The notes below the pieces were generated by a model that was not told the origin of the DNA, ran no database searches, and was given only the letters and a program-made list of their open reading frames with translations. Of a stretch of DNA of 64,000 nt, positions 29,583 through 53,827 are shown piece after piece; the stretch's first letter is position 1; the number at the start of each line of letters is the position of its first letter. The DNA comes from a virus. A program made the translations under genes and the position numbers. Location: IMG/VR virus record IMGVR_UViG_3300036792_000363, positions 32,001-96,000 of that record. One strand, given 5' to 3'.

Positions 29583-29838
29583 GCGCCCTGACCTCGACCG
29601 CCCACGGCCCGGTGCTCCAGGTGGTGACCACCTCCGAGCCCTCGGGCACCAGGGCCGCCACCTCGCGGGTGAAGTCCTCGTGGGTGATGGGCTCGGTCGT
29701 CAGGGCGTCGATGCGCGCGCCCAGCTCGTGCAGCTCCGGGGCCTCGTCGGCGTCGATCGTGATGACAAGCTCGCCGACGTCGGTCTCGTTCTTGAAAGGG
29801 CAGGTCTTGACGACCTGCCGGCGCAGGGTGACGTTCAC
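29554..29838 (-). CDS. QueF-like T-fold protein
   Basis: TCPFKNETDVGELVITI...PELHEL...ITHEDFT parallels the QueF pattern CP..PD..I.I...ELKSL...SHE. Confidence 0.6.
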   Translation of the reverse strand: MNVTLRRQVVKTCPFKNETDVGELVITIDADEAPELHELGARIDALTTEPITHEDFTREVAALVPEGSEVVTTWSTGPWAVEVRARALFRDHLH

Positions 29839-30395
29839 GCGGGCATCGCCACAGGGCCGGTCCTGCGCAGGCCCCACACCACCGGCACGGCCGCCAGCTG
29901 CACCCAGACCTTGCCGAGGACGAGCCCGGCGACGGCCGCCTCCCCCGAAGGCAGGTTAGCCAGGTGCAGGAAGACCACCGAGTCGACCACGGCGGCCACG
30001 CAGCCGGAGGCCAGCACGGCGGGGACGAGCCAGCGGCGCTGCAGCGGGGTGTAGATCAGGAAGTCGGCGCTCTCCGAGCACAGGTAGGTCAGCCCCGACG
30101 CCAAGGCGATGTGCGGGCTGCTGACGCCGTAGGAGACGGCCGCGCCCACCACGATGGCGGCCACCCCGAGCCAGCGGCCGCCGATCCGCTGGGTGACGTC
30201 GCGGGCGGGGAAGCTGACCGCGGCGGCCCAGACGCCCGACGGGGCCAGCAGGCCGAAGCCGACGTAGGTCAGGTGGGTGCCCGGCCCGGCGGGGATCCCG
30301 ACGTACGTGATCAGGTAGTTGGAGAGGACGATGGCGGCCACGTAGACGCCGAACGCAGCCGCGGCCCAGGGCCAGGTCTCTTTGATTTTGGGCAT
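29835..30395 (-). CDS. yhhQ: VUT-family queuosine-precursor transporter (YhhQ-like)
   Basis: About six TM segments; SNYL, PARDVTQR, SESADFLIY, VDSVVFL and GKVW motifs. Confidence 0.75.
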   Translation of the reverse strand: MPKIKETWPWAAAAFGVYVAAIVLSNYLITYVGIPAGPGTHLTYVGFGLLAPSGVWAAAVSFPARDVTQRIGGRWLGVAAIVVGAAVSYGVSSPHIALASGLTYLCSESADFLIYTPLQRRWLVPAVLASGCVAAVVDSVVFLHLANLPSGEAAVAGLVLGKVWVQLAAVPVVWGLRRTGPVAMPA

Positions 30396-30426
30396 GAGTG
30401 TCTCCCGGTAGAGGGCTGATGCTCTC

Positions 30427-30433
30427 TATTACG
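30427..30433 (-). promoter_or_regulatory. Class B promoter CGTAATA
   Basis: Upstream of the VUT-QueF-TGT operon. Confidence 0.45.
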
Positions 30434-30441
30434 GGCGAAGG

Positions 30442-31023
30442 TCAGATGCCCGGGTCCGTGGGGAAGCTCTGGGCGTTGACGTCGAAGAACTGCATGTCGA
30501 GCTGGTCGCGGTCGGCCGGGCCCACCAGGACCATCCGGCCCTCCTCGGGGTCCCACTTGATCCGCGCCAGGTCGTCCTTGGCGAAGTGCTCGAAGCCGGT
30601 GATCTGCCCGTAGAACACGCCGGCCAGGGACTGGCGCCGCGCCAGCCGCCGGATCGCCAGGTCGAACATGTCGACCCCGGTCTTCTCCGACGTCACTTCG
30701 ATCGCCTGCGCGTTGCGGGCCATCTCCTGGATCGGCTTGCTGTAGGAGTAGGACCCGATCTCCTCGGCCTGCAGCGGGTTGGCCATCACCTGCTGGTAGG
30801 GCCAGCGCAGGTACAGCCAGTCGGCCATCGCCATCACGCCCATGTTGGCGAGCAGCTGGTAGTCGGCGCTCAGCCCGCCGTAGTCGTCCGCCCCCAGCTC
30901 CGACAGGATCGTGAACATGATCGCGGCCTGCAGCAGCGCCGAGTTGGCGTACCCGGTGTAGCTGGTCACCGGCCGGCCAGAGTAGTTGGCAAGCTCGGCG
31001 ACGGTGGGGACCGGCCAGGGCAT
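30442..31023 (-). CDS. Head-tail adaptor
   Basis: PTVAELANYSG...LQAEEIGSYSYSK, typical of adaptors. Confidence 0.75.
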   Translation of the reverse strand: MPWPVPTVAELANYSGRPVTSYTGYANSALLQAAIMFTILSELGADDYGGLSADYQLLANMGVMAMADWLYLRWPYQQVMANPLQAEEIGSYSYSKPIQEMARNAQAIEVTSEKTGVDMFDLAIRRLARRQSLAGVFYGQITGFEHFAKDDLARIKWDPEEGRMVLVGPADRDQLDMQFFDVNAQSFPTDPGI

Positions 31024-36691: not shown

Positions 36692-37453
36692 ATGACTCAA
36701 GGCCGTCTAGCTGACGCGGAACCGCGCGTCTGCGTCATCTGCGGGACCCGGTTCACGCCCGCCCGGCGAAAGCAGGAGGCCTGCCCGGCGTCCACCGGGC
36801 GCACCTGCGCAATCACGCTCTCCAACCAGAAGCGGAGCGGGACGCGCAGTGCCGCGGGCAAGTTCGACAAGCCCGGGGAACGCCTGTGCGACCGATGCGA
36901 GCGGCCTTACCAGCCAGCGCGATTCGACTCCCGGACCTGCGGGGCCGACTGCCCGGGAAGGCCTGACGAGATCCGCGTCTGCGCCAACCCCGACTGCGCC
37001 CTCCGCACTCCTGTCGTCACGCGTGTCGTGGATGGCCGGGAGCTGCGGCCGGGCGAGTACATCGTCAAAGGCGGCAACCGCGGAAAAGCCAGCCAGCGGT
37101 ACTGCTCGAAGAAATGCCGGGACCATGTGGCCCGCATCCGCCAGGGACAGCGGTTCCGCCGGTACGACGGCCTGACCCGCGAGGAGTTCACCTCTGCAGG
37201 GGAGGAGCGCGGCTGGCGATGCGACATCTGCGGCCAGGTCCCGCTCCCGGACTCTCGGCGCATCATGCTCGACGAGCTTCCGTATCTTGTCGTCGACCAC
37301 TGCCACAGGTCAGGCGAGCGCCGCGGGCTGCTCTGCGGGCCGTGCAACACGGCCATCGGGCTCCTGGCTGACGACCCTGACCGCGCTGCCGCGGCAGCGG
37401 CCTACCTCCGGCTGTGGCAAACCCCGGCGGCGGCATCACCGCGCGCCGTATAA
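36692..37453 (+). CDS. Endonuclease VII-like homing endonuclease with Zn fingers
   Basis: Several CxxC pairs; RCDICG...VVDHCH...RGLLCGPCN; ATG 36692 with GGAGG RBS. Confidence 0.8.
   Translation: MTQGRLADAEPRVCVICGTRFTPARRKQEACPASTGRTCAITLSNQKRSGTRSAAGKFDKPGERLCDRCERPYQPARFDSRTCGADCPGRPDEIRVCANPDCALRTPVVTRVVDGRELRPGEYIVKGGNRGKASQRYCSKKCRDHVARIRQGQRFRRYDGLTREEFTSAGEERGWRCDICGQVPLPDSRRIMLDELPYLVVDHCHRSGERRGLLCGPCNTAIGLLADDPDRAAAAAAYLRLWQTPAAASPRAV
37447..37453 (+). promoter_or_regulatory. Class B-like promoter CGTATAA, leaderless (N6-ATG)
   Basis: CGTATAA-GGGGGT-ATG. Confidence 0.45.
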
Positions 37454-42057: not shown

Positions 42058-42351
42058 TCACCGACCGGAAATCGGCGGGCGGGGCGGCTGCGCGGGCGGC
42101 AGCATGCCCGGCGCCTGCCCGGTCGGGTTCAGGTGCTGGTAGGCGTGACCGGAGATGGCGTCGCCGGGCAGCGTCGCCAGGTACCCGCCCAGCCCCGGGT
42201 AGACGGCCGCCGCGCCGGCGGGGGCGGGGCCCGGCGGGGCGGGAGCCGGGGCGGCCTGCGGCGGCCCCGCCAGCTCCAGCGCCCGCCCCGCGCTGATCTC
42301 CTCCACCAGGTCGCGGGCGAGCGCCATCAGCGCCTCGTGCGGCCCGCTCAC
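42058..42351 (-). CDS. Pro/Ala-rich hypothetical protein
   Basis: 97 aa; GTGA overlap with portal. Confidence 0.5.
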   Translation of the reverse strand: MSGPHEALMALARDLVEEISAGRALELAGPPQAAPAPAPPGPAPAGAAAVYPGLGGYLATLPGDAISGHAYQHLNPTGQAPGMLPPAQPPRPPISGR

Positions 42352-43955
42352 GACCCGCCCAGCCCGTTCCCCTTGGGCCCGGCGCTGATGGCGCTGCCGC
42401 CGGAGGCCGACGTGCCGGTGGCCTGCGTGCCGACCGGCACCTTGATGTGGATGGCGGGCGGCTGGCGCGACCCGGACGGGCTGCCCGCCCCCGTCGGAGG
42501 CTGCTGCTGGGCCTGCTGCGCGGCGGCCTTCGCCTGCTGCGCCATCTGGCGCTGCATCGTCTTCGCCTGCTGCTCGCGCTGCTCCTGGATCGTGTCGTAG
42601 TCCAGGTCGAAGCCGAAGTCCTGGGCCATCCGCTCCTCAAGCGCCAGCATGAACTCGGGGGTGACGTTCGCCTGCGGGCCGGCCTGGGACAGCTTGTCGA
42701 ACGTGTCCTGGATCGCGCCCTTCTGCTCCTTGGTGAGCGGGCCCCACTTGAACTGCGGGTACTTCTGCGAGCCGAAATTCCAGTCGACGAACCGCGGGAA
42801 GATGTGGTCGTTGATGATCTGCGCCATCTCCTCCAGGATGCCCTCAAGCATCAGGAAGAAGGTGACGTCATCCTGCTGGCCGAAGTCGACCATCCGCGAG
42901 TCGCCCTGGCCGCCGCCGGTCGAGTCGTCGAACCACTGGGCCAGCACCGACTTGGACATCTGGCTGTTGTGGTGGTTGATCAGGCCCAGGAAGTCGAACC
43001 GCCCGGCCGCCTCGTTGAGCGTCTGCACGGTCCAGTCGGCGGTGGGCACCGCGATGTACTGGGCGAGGCCGAGCTGGGCGAGCGCGCGGATGAAGTTGCT
43101 CTTGTCCTCGGCCGGGGCGTTCGGCACCATCGTGCCCACCCGCAGGCCCACCGCCGCCCGCTGCGCGGCCAGGTGGGCGATGTAGTAGAGCTTCTCCTTC
43201 TTGTCGTAGTGGTAGAAGGCGCTCTCGAACATCGAGACCCCGTAGAACGGCCGCTCCGCCTCCTCGTGGGCGTAGTAGAGCGCCGTCTCCTTGGCGATCT
43301 TCACGTCGATGGTGCGGCCCTGGAAGAACGTCCGCTGCCGGAACCCGTTGAACTCGCCCTGCCCGTCGAGCAGGAAGGTGAGGGTCTCGCTCGGCCGCCA
43401 GTCGAGCTTGCGGAGCGTGTACTTGCCCTTGTTCGGCCCCGTGTCGGGCTGCCAGTACACCATCTCCCAGGCGGAGAACCCGTTGAACAGGGCCAGCAGC
43501 ATCTGCTTGACGAACCGGTCGAAGCTGTGGGTCATGCCCCCCTGCGAGCGCGGCGCGAACAGCAGGTCCTTGCAGAACCTCGCCTCCTCCACCCCGCCGG
43601 TCACGCCGTCGGCCGGCACCACGTCCGCGTTCTTCATCGCCGCCAGCAGCGGCTTGGTCAGCAGCCGGTACAGCGCCCGCGCCTGGCCGTCCCGGCGGCG
43701 CATGGTGACCAGCTGGCGGATCGAAACCGGGTCGTCCCTGAAGACTTCCCAGCTGTCGCGGTACGGGGTGGCGAACGGGAGGAAGTACGGGACGCCGGTG
43801 GCGAAGTTGAGCGCCTCGTCGGGCGGCTGGACCAGCTCCTGGTCGTCGGCCAGGCGGTAGCCCTCCTGGCCGTAGCCCTGGGTGGAGACGCCCATCCCGC
43901 CGGGCGGGGCCATGCTGGAGGGTGAGCTGCCCTGCCCGCCGCCTGGAGTGGTCAC
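42348..43955 (-). CDS. Portal protein (DUF935 / Mu gp29-like)
   Basis: MRRRDGQ, GFSAWEMVY, PFYGVSMFESAFY, QMSKSVLAQ; located between terminase and gpF-like gene. Confidence 0.85.
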   Translation of the reverse strand: MTTPGGGQGSSPSSMAPPGGMGVSTQGYGQEGYRLADDQELVQPPDEALNFATGVPYFLPFATPYRDSWEVFRDDPVSIRQLVTMRRRDGQARALYRLLTKPLLAAMKNADVVPADGVTGGVEEARFCKDLLFAPRSQGGMTHSFDRFVKQMLLALFNGFSAWEMVYWQPDTGPNKGKYTLRKLDWRPSETLTFLLDGQGEFNGFRQRTFFQGRTIDVKIAKETALYYAHEEAERPFYGVSMFESAFYHYDKKEKLYYIAHLAAQRAAVGLRVGTMVPNAPAEDKSNFIRALAQLGLAQYIAVPTADWTVQTLNEAAGRFDFLGLINHHNSQMSKSVLAQWFDDSTGGGQGDSRMVDFGQQDDVTFFLMLEGILEEMAQIINDHIFPRFVDWNFGSQKYPQFKWGPLTKEQKGAIQDTFDKLSQAGPQANVTPEFMLALEERMAQDFGFDLDYDTIQEQREQQAKTMQRQMAQQAKAAAQQAQQQPPTGAGSPSGSRQPPAIHIKVPVGTQATGTSASGGSAISAGPKGNGLGGS

Positions 43956-44666: not shown

Positions 44667-44690
44667 GACCACGGCGGTGAGCATCGAGGG

Positions 44691-44763
44691 TGGCCCTGGC
44701 TGGACTCGAACCAGCGCCGTACCGCTTAGGGGGCGGCCGCTCTGTCCACTGAGCTACAGGGTC
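44691..44763 (-). tRNA. tRNA-Arg(CCT), C33
   Basis: Cloverleaf; anticodon loop CCCCTAA. Confidence 0.85.
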
Positions 44764-44764
44764 C

Positions 44765-44841
44765 TGGAGGCGGCACCCGGAATTGAACCGGGGTCCATGA
44801 CGCTTTGCAGGCGACTGCCTAGTCCTCTCGGCCATACCGCC
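44765..44841 (-). tRNA. tRNA-Cys(GCA)
   Basis: Loop CTGCAAA; encoded CCA. Confidence 0.9.
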
Positions 44842-44852
44842 AGGTAATTGCG

Positions 44853-44926
44853 TGCGCCCGGAGGGACTCGAACCCCCGGCCTGCTGCTTCGGAAGCAGCC
44901 GCTCTACTCCACTGAGCTACGAGCGC
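44853..44926 (-). tRNA. tRNA-Arg(CCG)
   Basis: Loop TTCCGAA. Confidence 0.9.
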
Positions 44927-44927
44927 G

Positions 44928-45014
44928 TGGTGGCAGAACCAGGTGTCGGGCCTGGTATGTCCCGAAGGACGACGGCTTTACAGGCCGCTGAGCGTGCCGC
45001 CGCTCACTTCTGCC
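44928..45014 (-). tRNA. tRNA-Tyr(GTA), atypical T loop
   Basis: Loop CTGTAAA, long variable arm, CCA; T loop reads CCCGACA. Confidence 0.75.
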
Positions 45015-45015
45015 T

Positions 45016-45091
45016 TGGGGTGAGATACGGGAGTTGAACCCGCCTTGCGGGGTCCACGGCCCCGCGCCTTCCCTCGACGGCAAATCCCACC
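45016..45091 (-). tRNA. tRNA-His(GTG), C33
   Basis: Loop CCGTGGA; G-1; CCA. Confidence 0.85.
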
Positions 45092-45098
45092 ATGTGAA

Positions 45099-45166
45099 CT
45101 GGCAGGGGGCGGACTTGAACCGCCAGTCCCTCGTCAGGTCCCGGATCCGCGCCGGGCTCCTGCCAG
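45099..45166 (-). ncRNA. tRNA-like RNA with truncated anticodon arm
   Basis: Acceptor-like stem, D-like hairpin and canonical T arm GGCGG-TTCAAGT-CCGCC; only a 3 bp CCT-GACG-AGG hairpin at the anticodon position. Confidence 0.5.
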
Positions 45167-45171
45167 CTGCG

Positions 45172-45243
45172 TGGGCGCAGAAGGGATCGAACCTACGACC
45201 TGTCCGGTGTGAGCGGACCGCTCTTCCGCTGAGCTATGCGCCC
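45172..45243 (-). tRNA. tRNA-Val(CAC)
   Basis: Loop CTCACAC. Confidence 0.9.
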
Positions 45244-45360
45244 TTGTTCGCTAGTGCGGGGTACCGGCTCTCCCGCTCCCTGGTTCACGCCACACCCCCT
45301 GCAGGACCCGGGCCCGTGGCGCGCACCTGGGCTGTATCCCGCGGGCACCAGGCCCGCACG

Positions 45361-45433
45361 CGCGTTCGGAGGGACTCGAACCCCCAGCCAGCAGCTCCGT
45401 AAGCTGTCGCTCTATCCGTTGAGCTACGAACGC
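45361..45433 (-). tRNA. tRNA-Arg(ACG)
   Basis: Loop TTACGGA. Confidence 0.9.
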
Positions 45434-45444
45434 ATTGTCTTGCG

Positions 45445-45516
45445 TGGGCGTGCCTGGAATTGGACCAGGCACCTCTTCCGTGTCGGGGAAGCGCTCTGCC
45501 GATGAGCTACACGCCC
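45445..45516 (-). tRNA. tRNA-Val(GAC), C33
   Basis: Loop CCGACAC; T loop TCCAATT. Confidence 0.85.
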
Positions 45517-45563
45517 GGGTTAACCCTGGTCAAGAGACCGGACATCGCGTACCGTCAGTAAAC

Positions 45564-45698
45564 GTGCTAGCAGCCTTCATCATCGGAGCCGTGATCGGCT
45601 TCCTCGTCGGCAACTGGGTCGGCGGCTGGCGGGCCGTGATCAACGTCAGCCGGGTCGCCCACAACGAACTCATGCGCAAGGCCAAGCTGCGCAAATAG
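45564..45698 (+). CDS. Small membrane protein
   Basis: MLAAFIIGAVIGFLVGNWVGGW TM segment with a basic tail; TACCGT box upstream. Confidence 0.55.
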   Translation: MLAAFIIGAVIGFLVGNWVGGWRAVINVSRVAHNELMRKAKLRK

Positions 45699-45699
45699 G

Positions 45700-45775
45700 C
45701 GGTCGAGACGGGATTTGAACCCGCGTTCTTCACCTTGACGGGGTGACGGGGACGGCCGAACTCCCCTACACGACC
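45700..45775 (-). tRNA. tRNA-Asp(GTC), C33
   Basis: Loop CCGTCAA. Confidence 0.85.
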
Positions 45776-45785
45776 ATGACCTGCG

Positions 45786-45858
45786 CTCTCCCGATAGGAC
45801 TCGAACCTATAACCCGCTGGTTAACGGCCAGCCGCTCTGCCAATTGAGCTACGGGGGA
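45786..45858 (-). tRNA. tRNA-Asn(GTT), C33
   Basis: Loop CCGTTAA. Confidence 0.85.
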
Positions 45859-45859
45859 T

Positions 45860-45937
45860 TGGTGGCGGAGGCGGGATTCGAACCCGCGTACCCCGGGTTA
45901 TGAGCCCGGACTGGGACCTAACTCCAGCTACTCCGCG
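45860..45937 (-). tRNA. tRNA-fMet(CAT) initiator
   Basis: Unpaired position 1:72, GGG/CCC anticodon stem, CCA. Confidence 0.9.
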
Positions 45938-45968
45938 TCGTTGGCACCAGCGTACGCCTGGTGCCTCG

Positions 45969-46041
45969 TTCTCCCAACGGGATTCGAACCCGTGCTCTCG
46001 CCTTGAAAGGACGGCGACCTGGGCCACTAGTCGATAGGAGA
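45969..46041 (-). tRNA. tRNA-Glu(TTC)
   Basis: Loop CTTTCAA. Confidence 0.85.
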
Positions 46042-46052
46042 GCGATGCTGCG

Positions 46053-46126
46053 TAGTCCTGGTCGGATTCGAACCGACGTCAACTGAGCTGAGAACCCAGC
46101 ATCCTAGGCCGCTAGACGACAGGACC
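46053..46126 (-). tRNA. tRNA-Glu(CTC)
   Basis: Loop TTCTCAG. Confidence 0.85.
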
Positions 46127-46214
46127 GCGGCCCGGCGGCTTGGCCGACCGCCGGATGAGGGAGCGGCGCTAGCAGCCGCGCCCACGGGGCCGTCTTTAAG
46201 CGCGGCCGTTCATG

Positions 46215-46287
46215 TGCGCCGGGCAGGATTCGAACCCGCGCGCGACTCCTTAGAGGGGAGCGGCTCTATCCGCTGAGCTACCGGCGC
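46215..46287 (-). tRNA. tRNA-Arg(TCT), C33
   Basis: Loop CCTCTAA. Confidence 0.85.
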
Positions 46288-46291
46288 TCGG

Positions 46292-46364
46292 TGGGCCGCC
46301 AGGGACTCGAACCCTGAACCCGCTGATTAAAAGTCAACTGCGCTGCCAGTTGCGCCAGCGGCCC
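46292..46364 (-). tRNA. tRNA-Lys(TTT)
   Basis: Loop CTTTTAA. Confidence 0.9.
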
Positions 46365-46437
46365 CGGCTAGTTAACCGGAAACCGTTTCAGCTTAAACAT
46401 GGAGCCTCCTGCGTCCGCTTAGTGAACGTCATGCAAG

Positions 46438-46510
46438 TAGCGGTAAAGGGACTTGAACCCCTGGCCGACCCATTATGAGTGGGGCGCTCTACCGGCTGAG
46501 CTATACCGCC
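46438..46510 (-). tRNA. tRNA-Met(CAT) elongator (Ile2 not excluded)
   Basis: Loop CTCATAA; GGCGGTA acceptor. Confidence 0.85.
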
Positions 46511-46516
46511 GTGCTG

Positions 46517-46592
46517 TGGTGGGCGGAGGAGGACTTGAACCTCCAACCTTTTCCGTATCAGAGAACTGCTCGGACCATCGAGCTGCCCGCCC
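46517..46592 (-). tRNA. tRNA-Ile(GAT)
   Basis: Loop CTGATAC; CCA. Confidence 0.85.
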
Positions 46593-46596
46593 GGAG

Positions 46597-46686
46597 CAGA
46601 GGAGGCGAGACTCGAACTCGCACGGGGGTTTCCCCCCTAACCGTTTTCGGGACGGCATCCGGTAGGCCAGCTCGGATTACTCCTCC
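46597..46686 (-). tRNA. tRNA-Ser(CGA), C33
   Basis: Loop CCCGAAA; long variable arm. Confidence 0.85.
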
Positions 46687-46853
46687 ATGACAAACTGTGA
46701 TACTTCGGTTACCGTGGTGAACGAACTTCTCGCCCGAGAGTTCGTAGGTTAACTACCGGCGTGAAGCGCGGCCAGATTACCGGAGAAGCACCCGGGGCCT
46801 GACGAGGCCGATGACGTCCCCGTTACAAGGGCGACCGGGTGCTTCTTCCGTTG

Positions 46854-46943
46854 CGGAGGGAGCGGGATTCGAACCCGCGGGGCCGCTCTCGCGGCCCACT
46901 GCCTTAGCAGGACAGCGCCTTCAACCACTCGTGCCATCCCCCC
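46854..46943 (-). tRNA. tRNA-Ser(GCT)
   Basis: Loop CTGCTAA; long variable arm. Confidence 0.9.
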
Positions 46944-47028
46944 AGGGGCCGATCGCCCCCTCCCGGGAAGGGGACTGACCGCCGCGGCATGCGCGACGCC
47001 CCGGGGCCTCGTGCCAACAGCCCCAAAG

Positions 47029-47113
47029 TGGGCGAGGAGGGACTTGAACCCTCACTCCTCTTGCGGGGAACCGGATCCTGAATCCGGCGCGTCTGCCGTT
47101 CCGCCACCCGCCC
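47029..47113 (-). tRNA. tRNA-Leu(CAG)
   Basis: Loop TTCAGGA; long variable arm. Confidence 0.9.
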
Positions 47114-47187
47114 GAGCGTCACCGTGCCGGGCGCGACCCGGACATGTGCTGGACCCCCCTGCCCGGTGACCACGGCGGGGGTACACG

Positions 47188-47261
47188 AGCCGACGACGGG
47201 ATTCGAACCCGCGACCTCAACCTTGGCAAGGTTGCGCGCTAGCCAGCTGCGCTACGTCGAC
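47188..47261 (-). tRNA. tRNA-Gly(GCC)
   Basis: Loop TTGCCAA. Confidence 0.9.
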
Positions 47262-47272
47262 ATTGAACTGCG

Positions 47273-47344
47273 AGCGGACGACGGGGCTCGAACCCGCGAC
47301 CCCGTGCTTGGGAAGCACGTGCGCTACCACTGCGCCACATCCGC
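47273..47344 (-). tRNA. tRNA-Gly(CCC)
   Basis: Loop TTCCCAA. Confidence 0.9.
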
Positions 47345-47377
47345 ACGCCGGGGCGGCGCTGGCCGCCCCGGGCACTG

Positions 47378-47578
47378 CTAGAACCGCTCTCCCTCTTCGG
47401 ACTGGGCGAACGGGTCGATCACCTCGATGCCGCCGTCATCGTGGAAGTCGATCGAGACCTCGCTGCCGAGGCAGGTGACCTTGCACCTGGCGCCCCAGCT
47501 CTCGACCTTCACCTTCAGCTCGGCCTGGACGTTGCCCAGGCCCACCGCGACGTCGCCGCGGGGCTTACTAGCGCTCAT
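47378..47578 (-). CDS. Hypothetical protein
   Basis: 66 aa GC3-biased ORF. Confidence 0.55.
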   Translation of the reverse strand: MSASKPRGDVAVGLGNVQAELKVKVESWGARCKVTCLGSEVSIDFHDDGGIEVIDPFAQSEEGERF

Positions 47579-47675
47579 CGCCGGCCTCCCCGTCTGCCAC
47601 CGTGACCGTGACCGACTCGGTGACCGAGAGGCCCTGCGAGTCGGTCGCGGTGACGGTGATGGTGAGGTCAGCCAC
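47568..47675 (-). CDS. Short beta-strand peptide (Ig-like fragment)
   Basis: MADLTITVTATDSQGLSVTESVTVTVADGEAGDER. Confidence 0.45.
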   Translation of the reverse strand: MADLTITVTATDSQGLSVTESVTVTVADGEAGDER

Positions 47676-48003
47676 CGGCCGGCGGGGTGACGGTGGTCGT
47701 GAAGACCGCGGTCCCGGTCCCGTTGGCCAGGGTGTTGGACCCCGCGGCGTAGGTGTCGCCGAAGGTGTCCGTCGGGGTGACGTCCATCGACTCGCTGGCC
47801 TGCTCGACCACGGTGACGGTGGTGGATGCCGAGGCGGAGTTGCCCGCGGCGTCAGTCGCCGAGGCGGAGATGGTGAGGGTGACCGGGTTGGACTGGCTGT
47901 CGGCGTAGGTCGCCGTCAGCGTCAGCTGCTGGCCGGCGATGTAGCTGGCCGCGTCGGTCGCGAGGGAGAGGGTGGGGGTGCCAGGGGCTGGCGGAGTGGT
48001 CAT
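47668..48003 (-). CDS. Ig-like beta-sandwich protein
   Basis: LTLTATY...VTLTISASATDAAGNSASASTTVTV; AAGGA RBS. Confidence 0.65.
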   Translation of the reverse strand: MTTPPAPGTPTLSLATDAASYIAGQQLTLTATYADSQSNPVTLTISASATDAAGNSASASTTVTVVEQASESMDVTPTDTFGDTYAAGSNTLANGTGTAVFTTTVTPPAGG

Positions 48004-48050
48004 GGCGTTCCTTTGATCGGGAGGACGTTGCCTCCTGACCAATCGCCACC

Positions 48051-48127
48051 TGGAGCCCGGAACCGGGTTCGAACCGGTGACCTCATCCGTACCGGGGATA
48101 CGCTCTTCCACGCTGAGCTATCCGGGC
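48051..48127 (-). tRNA. tRNA-Thr(GGT), C33
   Basis: Loop CCGGTAC; CCA. Confidence 0.85.
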
Positions 48128-48129
48128 GA

Positions 48130-48198
48130 GTCTGATTCCATCTGCCGTCTACCTGCTGTTTTCCCGAAGGAAGGGGAGGTGTTCTTCGACAGTCAGAG
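48130..48198 (-). ncRNA. Candidate Y-RNA-like structured RNA
   Basis: Ends pair; GTCGAAG in the 5' strand; pyrimidine-rich loop; UUCG hairpin. Confidence 0.3.
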
Positions 48199-48269
48199 TT
48201 CGCGGGCGTGTGAACTACCGGGGGCTCTGACCCCCCGGGCGGCCTGCCCAGAACCGCGTCTCCTCCCGG

Positions 48270-48354
48270 TGTCCGAGGCGGGACTTGAACCCGCACACCC
48301 CTTTCGGGGCACCAGCACCTCAAGCTGGGGCGTCTGCCGTTCCGCCACCCGGAC
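48270..48354 (-). tRNA. tRNA-Leu(GAG)
   Basis: Loop TTGAGGT; long variable arm. Confidence 0.9.
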
Positions 48355-48510
48355 GCGGGGCCTCGCCAATCCTGACGGACCCGTCGTGGTCGCAGAGGGA
48401 GCCGTCCGCGTGCACGCGCCGCGGGTGCCCTGGCTGCGAGTAGTCGATGCTCACGACTACGAGATCCCCGGTGCAGTAGACCGCCTTCGCTGTCATACCG
48501 CCGAGGATAG

Positions 48511-48584
48511 AGCCCCGAACCGGAGTCGAACCGATGGCCTGCTCATTACGAAAGAGCCGCTCTGGCCAGCTGAGCTACCGGGGC
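48511..48584 (-). tRNA. tRNA-Thr(CGT)
   Basis: Loop TTCGTAA. Confidence 0.9.
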
Positions 48585-48593
48585 GTGCCTGCG

Positions 48594-48666
48594 TTCCTCC
48601 TCATGGATTCGAACCACACACCTCTGACACCAGACGCCAGCGCTCTGCCAACTGAGCTAAGGAGGA
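48594..48666 (-). tRNA. tRNA-Gln(CTG)
   Basis: Loop GTCTGGT; T1-A72 pair. Confidence 0.8.
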
Positions 48667-48763
48667 GCATTGCCGGGGGTCTTTTCTCCCCCCGGGGTAA
48701 CGGCCTTGTCCCTCCCGCAGAGGAGGCCGGGCACGGATTCGCAGGACGGCCGTGCCAGCCGAG

Positions 48764-48839
48764 TGGGCGACGCGGGATTCGAACCCGCAGGTGACGCGGC
48801 TTTTGGGGCCGCCGCATATGCCGGTTCTGCTACTCGCCC
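48764..48839 (-). tRNA. tRNA-Leu(CAA), C33, short variable arm
   Basis: Loop CCCAAAA. Confidence 0.8.
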
Positions 48840-48843
48840 GTTG

Positions 48844-48915
48844 TGCGCCGCCAGGGACTTGAACCCCGTTCCGTGGATTAAGAGTCCGCTGCATATCCCT
48901 ACATGCTCGCGGCGC
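48844..48915 (-). tRNA. tRNA-Lys(CTT)
   Basis: Loop CTCTTAA. Confidence 0.85.
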
Positions 48916-49110
48916 ATTGTTTCCGGAAGTCAGTCCCGGGACCCCGCCGCGCGGAGCCTGGTGTCGCCCGCTTGCGGCGGGCTCACAGGGCGTCGGCGGG
49001 TGCCCCGGGGAGCATGAGACCCGGCCAGCCGGCTGGCCGGGCTTACGAGGCGTGTCGACTCGCGCCCGCCGGCCGGCCGTTTGATTACGGTCCTGACCGT
49101 CATACCCAAG

Positions 49111-49181
49111 AGCGGATGACCGGAATTGAACCGGCGTGGTCAGCTTGGAAGGCTGATGCTCGGCCACTGAGCCACATCCGC
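49111..49181 (-). tRNA. tRNA-Gly(TCC)
   Basis: Loop CTTCCAA. Confidence 0.9.
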
Positions 49182-49192
49182 ATTGAACTACG

Positions 49193-49266
49193 TGGTCACA
49201 GAGGCGATCGAATCCTCGAACCTACCGCTTTTCAGGCGGTCGCTCTTCCGTCTGAGCTATGCGACC
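49193..49266 (-). tRNA. tRNA-Phe(GAA)
   Basis: Loop CTGAAAA. Confidence 0.85.
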
Positions 49267-49406
49267 TCGTTGCTTGTCCCCGGATTTCCACTGTCGCAGG
49301 AATACCGGGTAACCGCACCTCGGCACGCATGCACCAGGTGGCCACCCAGTGCTTCAGCCGGTCTCTGCCAGGCGCTACCCGGGAACTGCAACTCGGGCCG
49401 CGGCCC

Positions 49407-49475
49407 GGCAGTCGGCAGGAGTCGAACCTGCCCGTGCGCATACCCCGCAGAGGGGCCAGGGCAGTCGCCGCTGCC
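49407..49475 (-). ncRNA. Degenerate tRNA-like element (intact T arm, no D arm)
   Basis: GCAGG-TTCGACT-CCTGC; bulged acceptor-like stem; weak CTG-loop hairpin. Confidence 0.4.
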
Positions 49476-49477
49476 CG

Positions 49478-49554
49478 TGGTCGGGATGACGCGATTTGAA
49501 CGCGCGGCCCCCTGGTCCCAAACCAGGTGCTCTACCAAGCTGAGCTACACCCCA
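49478..49554 (-). tRNA. tRNA-Pro(TGG)
   Basis: Loop TTTGGGA; CCA. Confidence 0.9.
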
Positions 49555-49620
49555 GTGCGCGTTGTTTAGGGTCCCGTAGGCAGAGCCGGATACGGGCCTT
49601 ATGGCACAACGCGTAAAGCC

Positions 49621-49697
49621 TGGTCGGGGAGGCGGGATTCGAACCCACGACCTCTGCTTCCCGAAAGCAGCGCGCTACCAAGCTGCGCCACTCCCCG
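49621..49697 (-). tRNA. tRNA-Pro(CGG)
   Basis: Loop TTCGGGA; CCA. Confidence 0.9.
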
Positions 49698-49896
49698 ATG
49701 CTCCGGTCCTCAGAGCCCTGCTTCGCCTTGACGAGAGTCCCCGGCCGACGTCAGCCAGGTGCCTCAGCGGCCGCGTGGCGGCGGCCTCGGCCAGCAGGCC
49801 CGAGTGGGGGTGGAGCTGGCGGGGCAGACCGGCTAGTGCCTTGTTCCGCATTACCAGGACAGCTTCCCCGCGGCCAAGCGGCTACCTGCCCGAGCG

Positions 49897-49969
49897 TGGA
49901 GACGACGCGATTCGAACGCGCAACCGCTTCAGTGCGAGTGAAGTGCTCTACCAGCTGAGCTACATCCCC
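49897..49969 (-). tRNA. tRNA-Ala(CGC)
   Basis: Loop CTCGCAC; G3:U70 pair. Confidence 0.9.
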
Positions 49970-50385
49970 TAGATATGCTGCCAAATCTTGCGCTGCCTGA
50001 TCTGCCAGATCAGGGTGTAATCCACCCCGAGCTGATCCGCTACCGCCCGAAGGGAGAGCGGCGAGGATCTCGCCATCAGGACGTCTGCTTCAGTCAGCTT
50101 GGCCGCGGCGTTGTCTTCTCCGCACAGCGCCTCGGCTGCCGACTTCTTCCTGTAGCACGGGCTGCACCGAACCACGCATTTGGCCAGTTCGGCTTCCCGC
50201 CGGGCCTTAGCCCAAGACCAGACCCTGTGCGTGATCTTGGTAGACGGATCCACATGATCAACTTCAGGGCTGTCCCAGGAACCGCAGTCGACGCACGGCC
50301 CATTTTCTGCAATCCACGCAGCACGACGAGCAGCCATCCACATGCGCATGTACTCTCGCTGCTGAACTGGATCTTTATACGGCAC
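49969..50385 (-). CDS. HNH endonuclease with C-terminal HTH
   Basis: PCVDCG...EVDHVDP...CVVRCSPC; KLTEADV...LSLRAVADQLGV; lower GC than its flanks. Confidence 0.8.
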   Translation of the reverse strand: MPYKDPVQQREYMRMWMAARRAAWIAENGPCVDCGSWDSPEVDHVDPSTKITHRVWSWAKARREAELAKCVVRCSPCYRKKSAAEALCGEDNAAAKLTEADVLMARSSPLSLRAVADQLGVDYTLIWQIRQRKIWQHI

Positions 50386-50391
50386 GCTCAC

Positions 50392-50398
50392 TATTACG
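50392..50398 (-). promoter_or_regulatory. Class B promoter CGTAATA (N6-GTG)
   Basis: CGTAATA-GTGAGC-GTG. Confidence 0.45.
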
Positions 50399-50409
50399 TG
50401 AAGCGCCCG

Positions 50410-50482
50410 TGGAGCCTACGCGATTCGAACGCGTGACCTTTTGCATGCCATGCAAACGCGCTACCAGCTGCGCCAAGGCCCC
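50410..50482 (-). tRNA. tRNA-Ala(GGC)
   Basis: Loop ATGGCAT; G3:U70 pair. Confidence 0.9.
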
Positions 50483-50702
50483 AGATAGGCGCTCGGCCAG
50501 GACGCGATGCGAACACGCCCCGGCCGAGCGCCGGTCAAACTGGCGCGACGCCCGGTACAGAGTGATCCCCGGGAGTAGCTGCTCTATCTTCCGTCGCGCC
50601 CAAATACACGGCGGCGAGATGGCGCTCGCCGCCTGATGCTCACCGCTATGGTCTTGTCATGTAGCGAGCACGTCCCCCGGGCCGAGGCCCGGATGGTGCC
50701 AG

Positions 50703-50776
50703 CAGGGGCGGCAGGATTTGAACCCGCGACGCGCAGTTTTGGAGGCTGCCGTTCTGCCTGGCTGAACTACGCCCCT
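50703..50776 (-). tRNA. tRNA-Trp(CCA)
   Basis: Loop CTCCAAA. Confidence 0.9.
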
Positions 50777-51689: not shown

Positions 51690-53657
51690 CTACTGCTGCC
51701 ACCCGGCCTCCGGCCCCCAGTCGTCCATGAACCCGCCCGCGTGCTCCATCCCGGCCCGGGACGGGGGCAGGAAGGCATCGGGCCCGAGCTGCGAGAGCGA
51801 CGGCATGCCGGCGGGCGTGAACCCCTCCAGGCCGCTGTGCGGCCCGTAGAACTGGATCTGGCCCGGGTAGGCGCGCTTGCCGGCCGGGTCCTCGGCGCCG
51901 CCGACCTCCAGCGCCCCCACCACCGCGCCGGCCAGGGAGTCGGCCTCGTCCTTGGAGCTGTCGCCCAGGTGGTCGATCTTCCCGCTGGGCAGCCGCGACA
52001 GCCCCAGCAGCTCGATGATCGTCAGCTCCCGCAGCGGCATCTCCAGGCGGCCCTCGTACATGACGTCGCGCAGGGTCCGCCAGCCCTCCTCCGACACGTC
52101 GGTGGAGAACCGGTCGGTCTCGATGCCGTGGCTCTCCAGGATCTGCATCGAGTCCTTGCTCTGCCACTGGTCGAAGGAGAACCGCATGATCGGGAAGCCC
52201 ATCCGGCGCAGCTCCAGGCACAGCATCCGGGCCCACCGGATCTGGATCTCCATCGGGGGCACCGCGCCGGCGTCGGACTGGTAGGACAGGGTGAAGTCGA
52301 CCTTCACCACCGGGCGGCGCTCGCTCACCTGGATCTCCAGGCCCTGCTCGTCCGCGCCGGTGAGCGCGTGGTCCTGCCAGCGCTTCACGTGCGCCATGCT
52401 CACGCCGGCCCGGTCGCCGGAGGCCGCCAGGTCGGCGTGCATGGCGTACAGCGCGCCCTTCACCGCGAACAGCTCCGGGGAGAACGTGTAGACCGGCCGC
52501 CAGCTGGCCCCCTCGCGCACGTAGCCGACGCTGACCGGCGGCTGCGCGTACTCGGTGCAGCAGTCGCGGATGGCGGCCTCGTTGGCGAAGTAGGGGTTGA
52601 TCGCCCGCCGCGGCTTGCACTCGTACTTGGCCTCCGCCAGCGCCGGGTCCTTCTCGTAGTCCTCCGCGAACGCCGCCTTGCCGGAGATGCGGGGGTTGGC
52701 CTCCCAGGTGGCGAGCGGGCCCGACACGTAGTAGCGGCTCGCCTCGCCCTTGGCCGCGTTGTCGGCCTTGCCCTTCGCGACCAGCTGCTGGATGGTCGAG
52801 CCGAGGTAGCGCGGGTAGCTGATGTGCACGTTCTTGAACACCTCGGGGAACCGGGTGGTGGCCGAGGTCCGGATCATGTCCAGGATCGCCTCGGCGGAGC
52901 TGCTCGACTCGCGCTGCTTCGGCCCCGACGACCTGGCCAGCTCCGCCGCCGAACGGAAGGCGTCGATCTCGTCGGCGATGCCGAGGATCAGGTTGAGGCC
53001 CTCCTGGCTGTCGGCGTCGCTGTGGCCCGACACCGCCTCGATGTTGTGCTCGAACCTGATCGTGTCCAGCAGCGCGGTGGTGCGCTCGCCGCGGGCGCCG
53101 CGGCGCTGGCGGTCGGCGGCGTCGAGGATGTCGATGCCGCCGACCCGCTGGAACCAGCAGCCGGGCCGCTGCACCGCGCGGCGCATGGGGGCGAAGAACG
53201 CGCGCTGGGCCTGCTTCGAAGAAGATGCGACGTTGAGGACGTGGATCGAATCCTGTTCGGGCATCTGGTAGTAAAGCTGCGGACTGCGCAGGCACAGCAG
53301 CAGGTAGCAGACCCGCATGGCGATCATCCGGCAGGTGTGGTCCTTGCCCCCGCCCTTGCCCCACTCCAGCTCCAGGAAGTTGACCATCCGGCACGGGGCC
53401 GACCAGTAGGCGCGCACGGCCGGGTCGGCGCTGTCGGCCAGCAGCTTGTAGGTCTCGGGGTAGTAGACCCGCTCGGCGTGCCGGACCGCCTCGTACTGCA
53501 CGTCGGACAGCGGCGGGTTGGCCATGTACCCGCGGTCGCGCACGAACACGTCGAGCGGGACCGGCTCCTCCTCGAAGACCGAGAACCCGGGCGCGCTGGT
53601 GCCGGCGGCGCCGACGTTCCCGAGCAGCGCCGCCGCGGCGGCGCCGGGGGTGGTCAC
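51690..53657 (-). CDS. terL: Terminase large subunit
   Basis: Walker A GKGGGKD, Walker B IADEID, RNase H-like MHADLA...FDQWQS...DEADSL. Confidence 0.9.
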   Translation of the reverse strand: MTTPGAAAAALLGNVGAAGTSAPGFSVFEEEPVPLDVFVRDRGYMANPPLSDVQYEAVRHAERVYYPETYKLLADSADPAVRAYWSAPCRMVNFLELEWGKGGGKDHTCRMIAMRVCYLLLCLRSPQLYYQMPEQDSIHVLNVASSSKQAQRAFFAPMRRAVQRPGCWFQRVGGIDILDAADRQRRGARGERTTALLDTIRFEHNIEAVSGHSDADSQEGLNLILGIADEIDAFRSAAELARSSGPKQRESSSSAEAILDMIRTSATTRFPEVFKNVHISYPRYLGSTIQQLVAKGKADNAAKGEASRYYVSGPLATWEANPRISGKAAFAEDYEKDPALAEAKYECKPRRAINPYFANEAAIRDCCTEYAQPPVSVGYVREGASWRPVYTFSPELFAVKGALYAMHADLAASGDRAGVSMAHVKRWQDHALTGADEQGLEIQVSERRPVVKVDFTLSYQSDAGAVPPMEIQIRWARMLCLELRRMGFPIMRFSFDQWQSKDSMQILESHGIETDRFSTDVSEEGWRTLRDVMYEGRLEMPLRELTIIELLGLSRLPSGKIDHLGDSSKDEADSLAGAVVGALEVGGAEDPAGKRAYPGQIQFYGPHSGLEGFTPAGMPSLSQLGPDAFLPPSRAGMEHAGGFMDDWGPEAGWQQ

Positions 53658-53827
53658 GCGGGCGGGACCCGCCCCGGCCACCACCGGTAGTGCAGGTACA
53701 GGTGGATGGCGATGGAGATCATCCCCAGCAGGAACACGCCTTCCGCGTCGAACGGGTTATGGCCCTTGCCCGCCCAGTGCAGGACGAAAGCGATGAGCCA
53801 CAGGACTCCGGCGATGATCGCGAACAT
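53654..53827 (-). CDS. Small two-TM membrane protein
   Basis: MFAIIAGVLWLIAFVLHW...; GTGA overlap with terL. Confidence 0.65.
   Translation of the reverse strand: MFAIIAGVLWLIAFVLHWAGKGHNPFDAEGVFLLGMISIAIHLYLHYRWWPGRVPPA

What the first reader, a model, noticed from the sequence alone, without database searches (positions are those of the whole stretch)
44691..48839. Nine tRNAs replace the near-universal U33 with C33, including three of the four queuosine-family tRNAs
Seen: the anticodon loops of Arg(CCT), His, Val(GAC), Asp, Asn, Arg(TCT), Ser(CGA), Thr(GGT) and Leu(CAA) all begin CC; the other 26 keep U33. Nine hits at one position is not random error. Established: U33 forms the U-turn, bacterial TGT recognises U33-G34-U35, and phage tRNA anticodon-loop changes have been proposed to evade anticodon nucleases. 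Inference, three options: (a) the change evades host tRNA nucleases; (b) C33 His/Asp/Asn tRNAs escape host TGT and spare preQ precursors for the phage module; (c) they are substrates for a phage enzyme or for C-to-U editing.
Basis: partly seen in the sequence, partly recalled or inferred. Interest (0 to 1): 0.72.

Follow-up and report, generated by a model that had tools for sequence, protein, structure and literature searches.

The report
Phage tRNA genes with C33
Nine of the 34 transfer-RNA genes of this high-GC soil phage carry C instead of the almost universal U just before the anticodon; the genes look functional, and the swap looks more like a tolerated drift towards C in spare tRNA copies than a proven anti-defence trick.

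Summary
In the 34-gene tRNA array (window 44689-50776, minus strand), nine genes read C32-C33 and 25 keep U33.

It is a trait of the lineage. About 23% of roughly 600 tRNAs in related IMG/VR phages have C33, and never a purine apart from one G. Stems and T-loops stay under purifying selection, so these are working genes with Y33.

My best reading (0.5) is a weakly deleterious, tolerated U-to-C change in auxiliary tRNAs, driven by GC-biased substitution.
- In unrelated phage arrays, C33 rises with GC. The overall rate is 3.4%, and the fit predicts about 14-17% at this GC.
- Other invariant U positions (8, 54, 55) are enriched for C by the same 4-7-fold in this family.
- The set of C33 tRNAs differs from phage to phage.
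- Core tRNAs of two 72%-GC actinomycetes keep U33 (90 of 92). A chromosomal tRNA array in one of them has 7 of 23 C33.
- C33 avoids G37.

Escape from U33-dependent host enzymes remains possible (0.3) but is untested. The preQ/TGT idea and C-to-U editing found no support.

This scan has reported C33-rich phage tRNAs on many other genomes. I found no published description.

The parts
44689..50776 (-). tRNA array of 34 genes (about 5.6 genes per kb), lying between the portal gene and the large terminase gene
   Evidence: ARAGORN; Rfam
44689..44763 (-). tRNA-Arg(CCU), loop CCCCUAA (C33)
   Evidence: RF00005 57.5 bits
45016..45090 (-). tRNA-His(GUG), loop CCGUGGA (C33, G37), with an encoded CCA end
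   Evidence: RF00005 gives only 23.4 bits
45444..45516 (-). tRNA-Val(GAC), loop CCGACAC (C33). It also has C55 in the T-loop (UCCAAUU).
   Evidence: 57.2 bits
45698..45775 (-). tRNA-Asp(GUC), loop CCGUCAA (C33)
   Evidence: 51.9 bits
45785..45858 (-). tRNA-Asn(GUU), loop CCGUUAA (C33)
   Evidence: 59.8 bits
46214..46287 (-). tRNA-Arg(UCU), loop CCUCUAA (C33)
   Evidence: 57.8 bits
46596..46686 (-). tRNA-Ser(CGA), class II, loop CCCGAAA (C33)
   Evidence: tRNA-Sec model, 32 bits; ARAGORN at a lower threshold; 9 of 10 relatives' Ser(CGA) also have C33
48051..48127 (-). tRNA-Thr(GGU), loop CCGGUAC (C33), with an encoded CCA end
   Evidence: 56.6 bits
48763..48839 (-). tRNA-Leu(CAA), short variable arm, loop CCCAAAA (C33)
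   Evidence: 42.9 bits
42348..43955 (-). Mu-type portal protein. It flanks the array and was used to collect relatives.
   Evidence: Pfam PF06074, E = 3e-32
51690..53684 (-). Probable large terminase subunit, flanking the array on the other side
   Evidence: weak PHROG hit, phrog_17415, E = 8e-6; Magritte has terminase next to portal

Best explanation
The nine C33 genes are working auxiliary tRNAs in which the U-turn uridine has relaxed from U to 'any pyrimidine'. C is the least harmful replacement for U33. Phage-borne and array-borne tRNAs duplicate the host's own set, so selection on each copy is weak. In a 72%-GC genome, substitutions towards G/C are strongly favoured. Together these push a weakly deleterious U33-to-C change to about a quarter of the tRNAs. 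It settles wherever the loop tolerates it: mostly A37 tRNAs, and never those such as Ile(GAU) that depend on U33-linked modification.

Shown: C33 is real and lineage-wide; it is pyrimidine-only; it follows GC; it is paralleled at other invariant U positions; and it is absent from core cellular tRNAs.

Inferred: that the tRNAs are expressed, charged and used, and that the driver is a fixation bias, not a benefit.
For: 1. Lineage-wide and pyrimidine-only. There are 133 C, 443 U, 1 G and 0 A at position 33 among 577 tRNAs of relatives.

2. The genes are under purifying selection. Among 12 relatives the stems are near saturation with paired changes (diversity about 0.45). G53, U54, U55, C56 and C61 stay at 0-0.08. 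Position 33 has 0.23, the same as the two-state positions Y32 (0.28), N38 (0.27) and R57 (0.23).

3. The C33 set differs in every relative. About 22 isoacceptors toggle. Even near-identical tRNA pairs differ at position 33.

4. There is a GC trend in unrelated IMG/VR arrays. C33 is 1-2% below 45% GC and 5-11% above it. A logistic fit predicts 13.8% (CI 7-24%) at GC 0.68 and 17% at 0.72. The family shows 23% and the window 26%. The binomial p for the window against 17% is 0.11.

5. The fold-excess is the same at other invariant uridines. Family against controls: C8 2.4% vs 0.6%, C54 1.6% vs 0.4%, C55 3.4% vs 0.5%, C33 22% vs 3.4%. G54 and G58 are also up, while A54 and U58 are down.

6. Core against accessory tRNAs in the same cytoplasm. 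Dispersed tRNAs of two 72%-GC actinomycetes are 90 U33 to 2 C33. Both exceptions are the tRNA with anticodon UAA, which should read UUA. UUA being the rarest codon in such genomes is my expectation and was not measured here. A 27-gene chromosomal array in one of them has 7 of 23 C33 (Fisher p = 0.0013).

7. There are structural rules. C33 is depleted with G37 (9/104 against 101/392, OR 0.27). That fits avoidance of a C33-G37 pair. Ile(GAU), Lys(CUU) and Ser(GCU) never have C33. This fits the report that E. coli TsaBCDE cannot make t6A on a U33C tRNA (PMC8887486).

8. C33 frequency shows no link to codon usage (rho = -0.02).
Against: - The family (23%) and the G208 array (30%) lie at the upper edge of the GC extrapolation. 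Other high-GC arrays are lower: Bxz1 2/30, Magritte 0/25, L249 2/25, L277 2/23.
- The variable pyrimidine positions 32 and 60 are not richer in C than in low-GC controls. A simple GC push on all sites therefore does not hold.
- Ser(CGA) and Thr(GGU) carry C33 in 83-90% of relatives, which could mean a benefit.
- The statistics are not corrected for shared ancestry.
- The host is unknown.
- There is no expression, charging or modification data.
Confidence: 0.5

Rival explanations
1. Adaptive stealth. C33 is kept because it makes phage tRNAs poor substrates for host enzymes that read or cut at U33. Candidates are anticodon nucleases that cleave next to position 33, or modification enzymes whose product a nuclease needs. 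Translation then continues when host tRNAs are attacked.
For: - The general hypothesis and proven cases of nuclease-insensitive phage tRNAs exist (PMC10264068, PMC12409363).
- C33 is about 7-fold commoner here than in other phage arrays, and far commoner than in core cellular tRNAs.
- C33 is an anti-determinant for at least one bacterial enzyme, EcTsaBCDE (PMC8887486). By established knowledge it is also one for bacterial TGT, which reads U33-G34-U35.
- Ser(CGA) and Thr(GGU) keep C33 in most relatives.
- Val tRNAs with U32-C33 recur in unrelated actinophages.
Against: - No U33-dependent nuclease is known to me or was found in the papers read. Proven escape works through positions 39 and 41 (PMC12409363).
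- The C33 set is different in each relative.
- C8, C54 and C55 show an equal fold-excess, which no anticodon nuclease would explain.
- The GC trend fits drift.
- The phage carries no RNA repair genes that would point to nuclease pressure.
Confidence: 0.3
2. C33 is restored to U (or pseudouridine) in the RNA by a cytidine deaminase of the host or phage, so the genomic C is silent.
For: C/T toggling between relatives resembles edited sites in organelles. C-to-U/pseudouridine editing at position 32 of a bacterial tRNA is known (Vibrio TrcP; from my own memory, not checked here). A host tRNA with anticodon UAA also carries C33.
Against: No CDA-fold deaminase is present in the phage, in six frames at E <= 1, or by Pfam over about 100 proteins. 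Editing at position 33 is not known in any system. C8, C54 and C55 rise in parallel.
Confidence: 0.05
3. C33 in Asn, Asp and His lets them escape host TGT, which spares preQ precursors for a phage 7-deazaguanine module.
For: GUN-anticodon tRNAs are modestly enriched for C33 in the family (24/69 against 86/429, OR 2.1). A VUT-type transporter gene lies at about window 29838-31023.
Against: - No TGT family match was found in the phage or in two 72%-GC actinomycetes. All 14 control genomes have one.
- The 'TGT-like' gene matches only phrog_15826, of unknown function.
- Tyr is 1/14 C33 and His 5/19.
- Most C33 tRNAs are not Q-type.
Confidence: 0.03
4. The C33 genes are decaying, non-functional copies.
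For: His (23 bits), Ser(CGA) (below the cut-off) and Leu(CAA) (43 bits) score low on RF00005. Val(GAC) also has C55.
Against: Six of the nine score 52-60 bits, like their U33 neighbours. All have intact stems and 7-nt loops. Position 33 is never a purine, stems evolve by paired changes, and the T-loop is conserved across relatives.
Confidence: 0.07

Closest known systems
Nuclease-insensitive phage tRNAs (hypothesis of van den Berg et al. 2023, PMC10264068; T5 tRNA-Lys(UUU), Thr and Asn against the PARIS nuclease AriB, PMC12409363)
   Same: Phage-encoded tRNA sets whose anticodon arms differ from the host's. Large arrays in actinophages.
   Different: Proven or proposed escape positions lie at or beside the cleavage site (36-41). 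U33 is not mentioned. Here one universal structural position changes in many unrelated isoacceptors, and the set differs from phage to phage. No cognate nuclease is known.
Cytoplasmic initiator tRNA-Met of multicellular eukaryotes (C33) (PMC5041475, PMC8887486)
   Same: A natural, functional tRNA with C33. It shows that the U-turn can be built with C, and that C33 changes recognition by the t6A enzymes.
   Different: That case is a single initiator tRNA, fixed and co-evolved with KEOPS. Here nine elongator tRNAs of a bacterial virus carry C33, and the state varies among relatives.
tRNA array units of actinobacteria, their plasmids and phages (PMC5966550, PMC4758250, PMC12803027)
   Same: At least 20 tRNA genes at two or more per kb, accessory to the core set. 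The G208 chromosomal array that I examined shares the C33 excess.
   Different: Text searches of one of these papers (PMC5966550; I did not open PMC4758250 or PMC12803027) found no anticodon-loop discussion, and no library search returned a description of C33 in arrays.
Mycobacteriophage Bxz1 (cluster C1) tRNA set
   Same: A high-GC actinophage with about 30 tRNAs. Both of its Val tRNAs have U32-C33.
   Different: Only 2 of 30 are C33, against 9 of 34 here.

Membership tests
Canonical elongator tRNA (Rfam RF00005) | Cloverleaf with a 7-bp acceptor stem, 5-bp anticodon stem, 7-nt loop and T-loop UUCRANY | tested here: met
   ARAGORN structures. Seven of the nine score above the gathering cut-off. 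His and Ser(CGA) are found only by ARAGORN or by a weak Rfam hit.
Canonical elongator tRNA (Rfam RF00005) | U33 (U-turn uridine) | tested here: not met
   C33 in nine genes
Canonical elongator tRNA (Rfam RF00005) | Purine at position 37 | tested here: met
   A37 in eight and G37 in His
tRNA array unit (at least 20 tRNA genes, at least 2 per kb; PMC4758250) | Gene number and density | tested here: met
   34 genes in 6.1 kb
Nuclease-insensitive phage tRNA | A host nuclease that cleaves the cognate host tRNA | not testable with these tools
   The host is unknown. The record comes from a soil metagenome.
Nuclease-insensitive phage tRNA | A substitution at a position shown to block cleavage | tested here: inconclusive
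   Neither of the two tRNase papers I read (PMC10264068, PMC12409363) names U33 as a determinant. Known escapes use 36-41.
C-to-U edited tRNA | A cognate cytidine deaminase is encoded | tested here: not met
   No PF00383 match in six frames. No deaminase family in the Pfam scans. The genome is about 82% complete, and the host was not examined.
C-to-U edited tRNA | RNA reads U where DNA reads C | not testable with these tools
Queuosine (TGT) substrate tRNAs | U33-G34-U35 in the loop | tested here: not met
   Asn, Asp and His read C33-G34-U35
Queuosine (TGT) substrate tRNAs | TGT present in the phage or a likely host | tested here: not met
   PF01702 is absent from G000, G104 and G208, and present in 14 of 14 controls. 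The true host is unknown.

The most novel reading that the evidence does not exclude
C33 marks a class of 'stealth' accessory tRNAs of phages and mobile arrays. The change is kept because it hides them from host enzymes that depend on U33: the t6A machinery, TGT, or an as yet undescribed anticodon nuclease of actinomycetes. Alternatively, they may need a C-to-U editing step that gates their activity, as might the host's own C33 tRNA that reads UUA.
Probability: 0.2. Interest if true: 0.75.

Novelty: new variant of a known kind. Interest (0 to 1): 0.45.

Why it matters
U33 is taught as invariant in elongator tRNAs. Here a quarter of an otherwise well-kept tRNA set lacks it, and the same holds for about 30 related phages and for a chromosomal tRNA array.

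If the drift reading is right, these arrays are a natural mutational scan. They show which tRNAs can work with C33 (mostly A37 tRNAs) and how weak selection is on auxiliary tRNA copies. They also warn against reading every odd base in a phage tRNA as counter-defence.

If the adaptive reading is right, there is an undescribed host enzyme that reads U33.

Either way, these C33 tRNAs probably lack t6A37 or queuosine where those enzymes need U33, and that can be tested directly.

Tried and rejected
- **Close relatives among isolated phages.** Megablast found none. The nearest isolate is Microbacterium phage Magritte at 51% portal identity. It has 25 tRNAs, all U33.
- **Host identification.** A portal scan of genome contigs gave only two distant phage-like contigs inside MAGs. 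BLAST of the array against 301 actinomycete genomes only found conserved Pro and Leu tRNAs, and the tool gave no taxon names.
- **Portal tree for counting independent flips.** It was star-like and unresolved, and two rows were frameshifted, so I used pairwise comparisons instead.
- **Codon-usage explanation.** There is no correlation.
- **ADP-ribosylation of tRNA-Thr(GGU) by a T6SS toxin (PMC13617354).** It targets positions 35-36, not 33.
- **Cyanobacterial L-array paper (PMC8421152) and the bldA literature searches.** They say nothing about position 33.


Full report
**What is there**

The window is bases 32001-96000 of a single 124,773-bp IMG/VR virus record. It has 71.8% GC, is rated about 82% complete, and comes from a soil metagenome. 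It encodes a Mu-type portal, an E-type major capsid protein and a decoration protein.

Between the portal gene (42348-43955) and a probable large terminase gene (51690-53684) lies a minus-strand array of tRNA genes at 44689-50776. ARAGORN finds 33 genes there and Rfam confirms 31 above its cut-off. A 34th gene, Ser(CGA) at about 46596-46686, appears only as a weak Rfam hit and at a lower ARAGORN threshold.

I extracted every anticodon arm. Eight ARAGORN genes plus Ser(CGA) have a normal 5-bp stem and 7-nt loop that begins C32-C33. They are Arg(CCU), His, Val(GAC), Asp, Asn, Arg(UCU), Ser(CGA), Thr(GGU) and Leu(CAA). The other 25 have U33.

In the same 33 genes the other invariant positions hold: U54 33/33, C56 33/33, A58 33/33, U55 32/33 and U8 31/33.

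**Is it a lineage trait?**

The portal protein retrieved 116 related IMG/VR stretches, and 80 were kept. ARAGORN found 584 tRNAs on them. Of 577 with standard loops, position 33 is U in 443, C in 133, G in 1 and never A.

I compared twelve genomes that each hold at least 25 tRNAs.
- About 22 isoacceptors carry C33 in some phages and U33 in others. These include Asn, Asp, both Val, Thr(GGU/CGU), Ser(CGA/GGA/UGA), both Glu, both Gln, Gly(UCC), Arg(CCU/UCU), Leu(CAA), Lys(UUU), both Ala, His, and Met in two phages.
- Several are always U33: Gly(GCC), Ile(GAU), Lys(CUU), Arg(ACG), Pro(CGG), Phe, Leu(GAG), Ser(GCU) and Trp. Arg(CCG) and Cys(GCA) are U33 in all twelve genomes but carry C33 in a few smaller related contigs (2/23 and 6/30).
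- No two phages share the same C33 set.

Per-position diversity among orthologues shows genes under strong purifying selection.
- Stems are near saturation, at about 0.45, through paired changes.
- G53, U54, U55, C56 and C61 stay at 0-0.08.
- Position 33 scores 0.23, the same as the accepted two-state positions 32 (0.28), 38 (0.27) and 57 (0.23).

In this family U33 has become Y33, and these are not decaying genes. Even tRNA pairs that differ at four or fewer bases include two independent flips at position 33.

**Baselines**

- Two pattern-drawn samples of unrelated IMG/VR tRNA loci gave 27 C33 among 799 distinct tRNAs, or 3.4%.
- The rate rises with GC. It is 1-2% below 45% GC and 5-11% above it (Mann-Whitney p = 4e-4).
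- A logistic fit on these controls predicts 13.8% at GC 0.68 (bootstrap CI 7-24%) and 17% at 0.72.
- The family shows 23% and the window 26%. That is the upper edge of the trend but not far outside it. The binomial p for 9/34 against 17% is 0.11.
- Other actinophages are lower. Bxz1 has 2/30, and both are Val tRNAs with U32-C33. Magritte has 0/25. A distant relative in a 57%-GC MAG contig has 2/40, again Val.

**Cellular tRNAs**

I could not identify the host, so I sampled two 72%-GC actinomycete genomes of 7.5 and 10 Mb (G104 and G208).
- Their dispersed tRNAs are 90 U33 to 2 C33.
- Both exceptions are the same 76-nt tRNA with anticodon UAA. Its C33 arm also occurs in two further genomes.
- That tRNA should read UUA, which I expect to be the rarest codon in such genomes. 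I recall the bldA tRNA of Streptomyces, but I did not verify that this is it.
- G208 also holds a 27-gene, 2.7-kb tRNA array among ordinary chromosomal genes. Seven of its 23 parsed tRNAs have C33 (Fisher p = 0.0013 against the dispersed set).

In one cytoplasm and one GC regime, then, core tRNAs keep U33 while accessory arrayed copies lose it in a quarter to a third of cases.

**What shapes the pattern**

- C33 frequency per isoacceptor is unrelated to the phage's codon usage (rho = -0.02).
- C33 is depleted in tRNAs with G37 (9/104 against 101/392, OR 0.27; not corrected for ancestry). This fits avoidance of a C33-G37 pair that would close the loop.
- In the G208 array, Leu(GAG) and Arg(GCG) with C33 have A37 where the host's copies have G37.
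- Among U36-A37-A38 tRNAs, Ile(GAU), Lys(CUU) and Ser(GCU) never have C33.
- The literature reports that E. coli TsaBCDE cannot make t6A on a U33C tRNA, and that t6A is a positive determinant for charging eukaryotic cytosolic tRNA-Ile (PMC8887486). I recall the same holding for E. coli IleRS, which I did not check. This gives a plausible reason for the Ile constraint.

The most telling control compares the family with unrelated phage tRNAs at other invariant positions.

| Variant | Family | Controls |
|---|---|---|
| C8 | 2.4% | 0.6% |
| C54 | 1.6% | 0.4% |
| C55 | 3.4% | 0.5% |
| C33 | 22% | 3.4% |

- The excess is 4-7-fold at every invariant uridine.
- G54 and G58 are also raised, while A54 and U58 are lowered.
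- The family's excess is therefore a general shift of rare variants towards G/C at conserved sites.
- Position 33 stands out only because it is the invariant U that best tolerates C.

**Enzymes**

- Pfam scans of about 100 predicted proteins found no deaminase, RNA ligase, RtcB, polynucleotide kinase or CCA-adding enzyme.
- A six-frame search for the cytidine/dCMP deaminase family found nothing at E <= 1.
- The TGT family is absent from the phage and from G104 and G208, while all 14 control genomes have it.
- GUN-anticodon tRNAs are modestly enriched for C33 (OR 2.1). Asn and Asp drive this. Tyr is 1/14 and His 5/19.

**Reading**

The best-supported account is that C33 is a weakly deleterious but workable variant. 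It accumulates in auxiliary tRNA copies under weak selection and a strong bias towards G/C, and loop-structure and modification needs filter where it can sit. I give this 0.5.

An adaptive role remains open at 0.3. That role would be hiding from a host enzyme that depends on U33.
- In its favour, the family lies above the fitted trend, Ser(CGA) and Thr(GGU) keep C33 in most relatives, and positions 32 and 60 do not follow a simple GC push.
- Against it, no such nuclease is known, and the one proven escape I could read uses positions 39 and 41 (PMC12409363).

Editing (0.05), the TGT/preQ idea (0.03) and gene decay (0.07) are unlikely.

**Novelty**

Reviews state that U33 is conserved in elongator tRNAs, with the eukaryotic initiator and the Candida Ser tRNA as exceptions (PMC5041475). 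My searches found no paper that describes C33-rich phage or array tRNAs.

This scan has already noted the same thing on many other phage genomes. Earlier follow-ups leaned towards adaptation. The GC trend, the parallel rise at U8, U54 and U55, and the core-versus-array contrast reported here argue for a more ordinary cause.

Noticed in passing
G208:C1:4297780-4300378 (locus L355): A 27-gene tRNA array of 2.7 kb and 66.8% GC sits in the chromosome of a 72%-GC actinomycete. Ordinary genes flank it (CoA transferase, phospholipase C, MarR, BacA, IclR, Ser/Thr kinases with WD40). No integrase or phage gene lies within 12 kb. Seven of its 23 parsed tRNAs have C33.
   Followed up: partly
G104:C1:6755297-6755371; G208:C1:2346125-2346199; also G039:C41:87776-87792 and G065:C17:14553-14569: A 76-nt cellular tRNA with anticodon UAA and a short variable arm carries C32-C33 in at least four actinomycete genomes. 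It may be the bldA-type tRNA that reads UUA, but this is my recollection and is not verified. The Leu(CAA) of these genomes is also short-armed (74 nt).
   Followed up: partly
Bxz1 (L381), G001:C1 phage (L202, L203), L097, and family loci: Val tRNAs with U32-C33 (or C32-C33) recur in unrelated actinophages. Examples are both Val tRNAs of mycobacteriophage Bxz1, two in a 186-kb phage contig binned in a Nanopelagicales MAG, and one in L097.
   Followed up: partly
window 45444-45516: tRNA-Val(GAC) carries two U-to-C changes at invariant positions: C33, and C55 in the T-loop (UCCAAUU).
   Followed up: no
window 37267-37364 (+): ARAGORN calls a 98-nt tRNA-Gly(GCC) on the opposite strand. It has a poor D-arm and a long extra arm, and Rfam does not find it. 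It is probably a false positive.
   Followed up: partly
It hits only phrog_15826, of unknown function, at E = 9e-70. Its neighbours are a VUT-type transporter and a SLOG protein.
   Followed up: partly
window 44689-50776: Only some array members encode the 3' CCA: Cys, His, one Met, Ile, Thr(GGU) and both Pro. No CCA-adding enzyme gene was found in the phage.
   Followed up: no
L220 and L244 (IMG/VR contigs of 47-49% GC): Two unrelated mid-GC phage arrays are also rich in C33 (4 of 14 and 3 of 11). They sit well above the GC trend.
   Followed up: no
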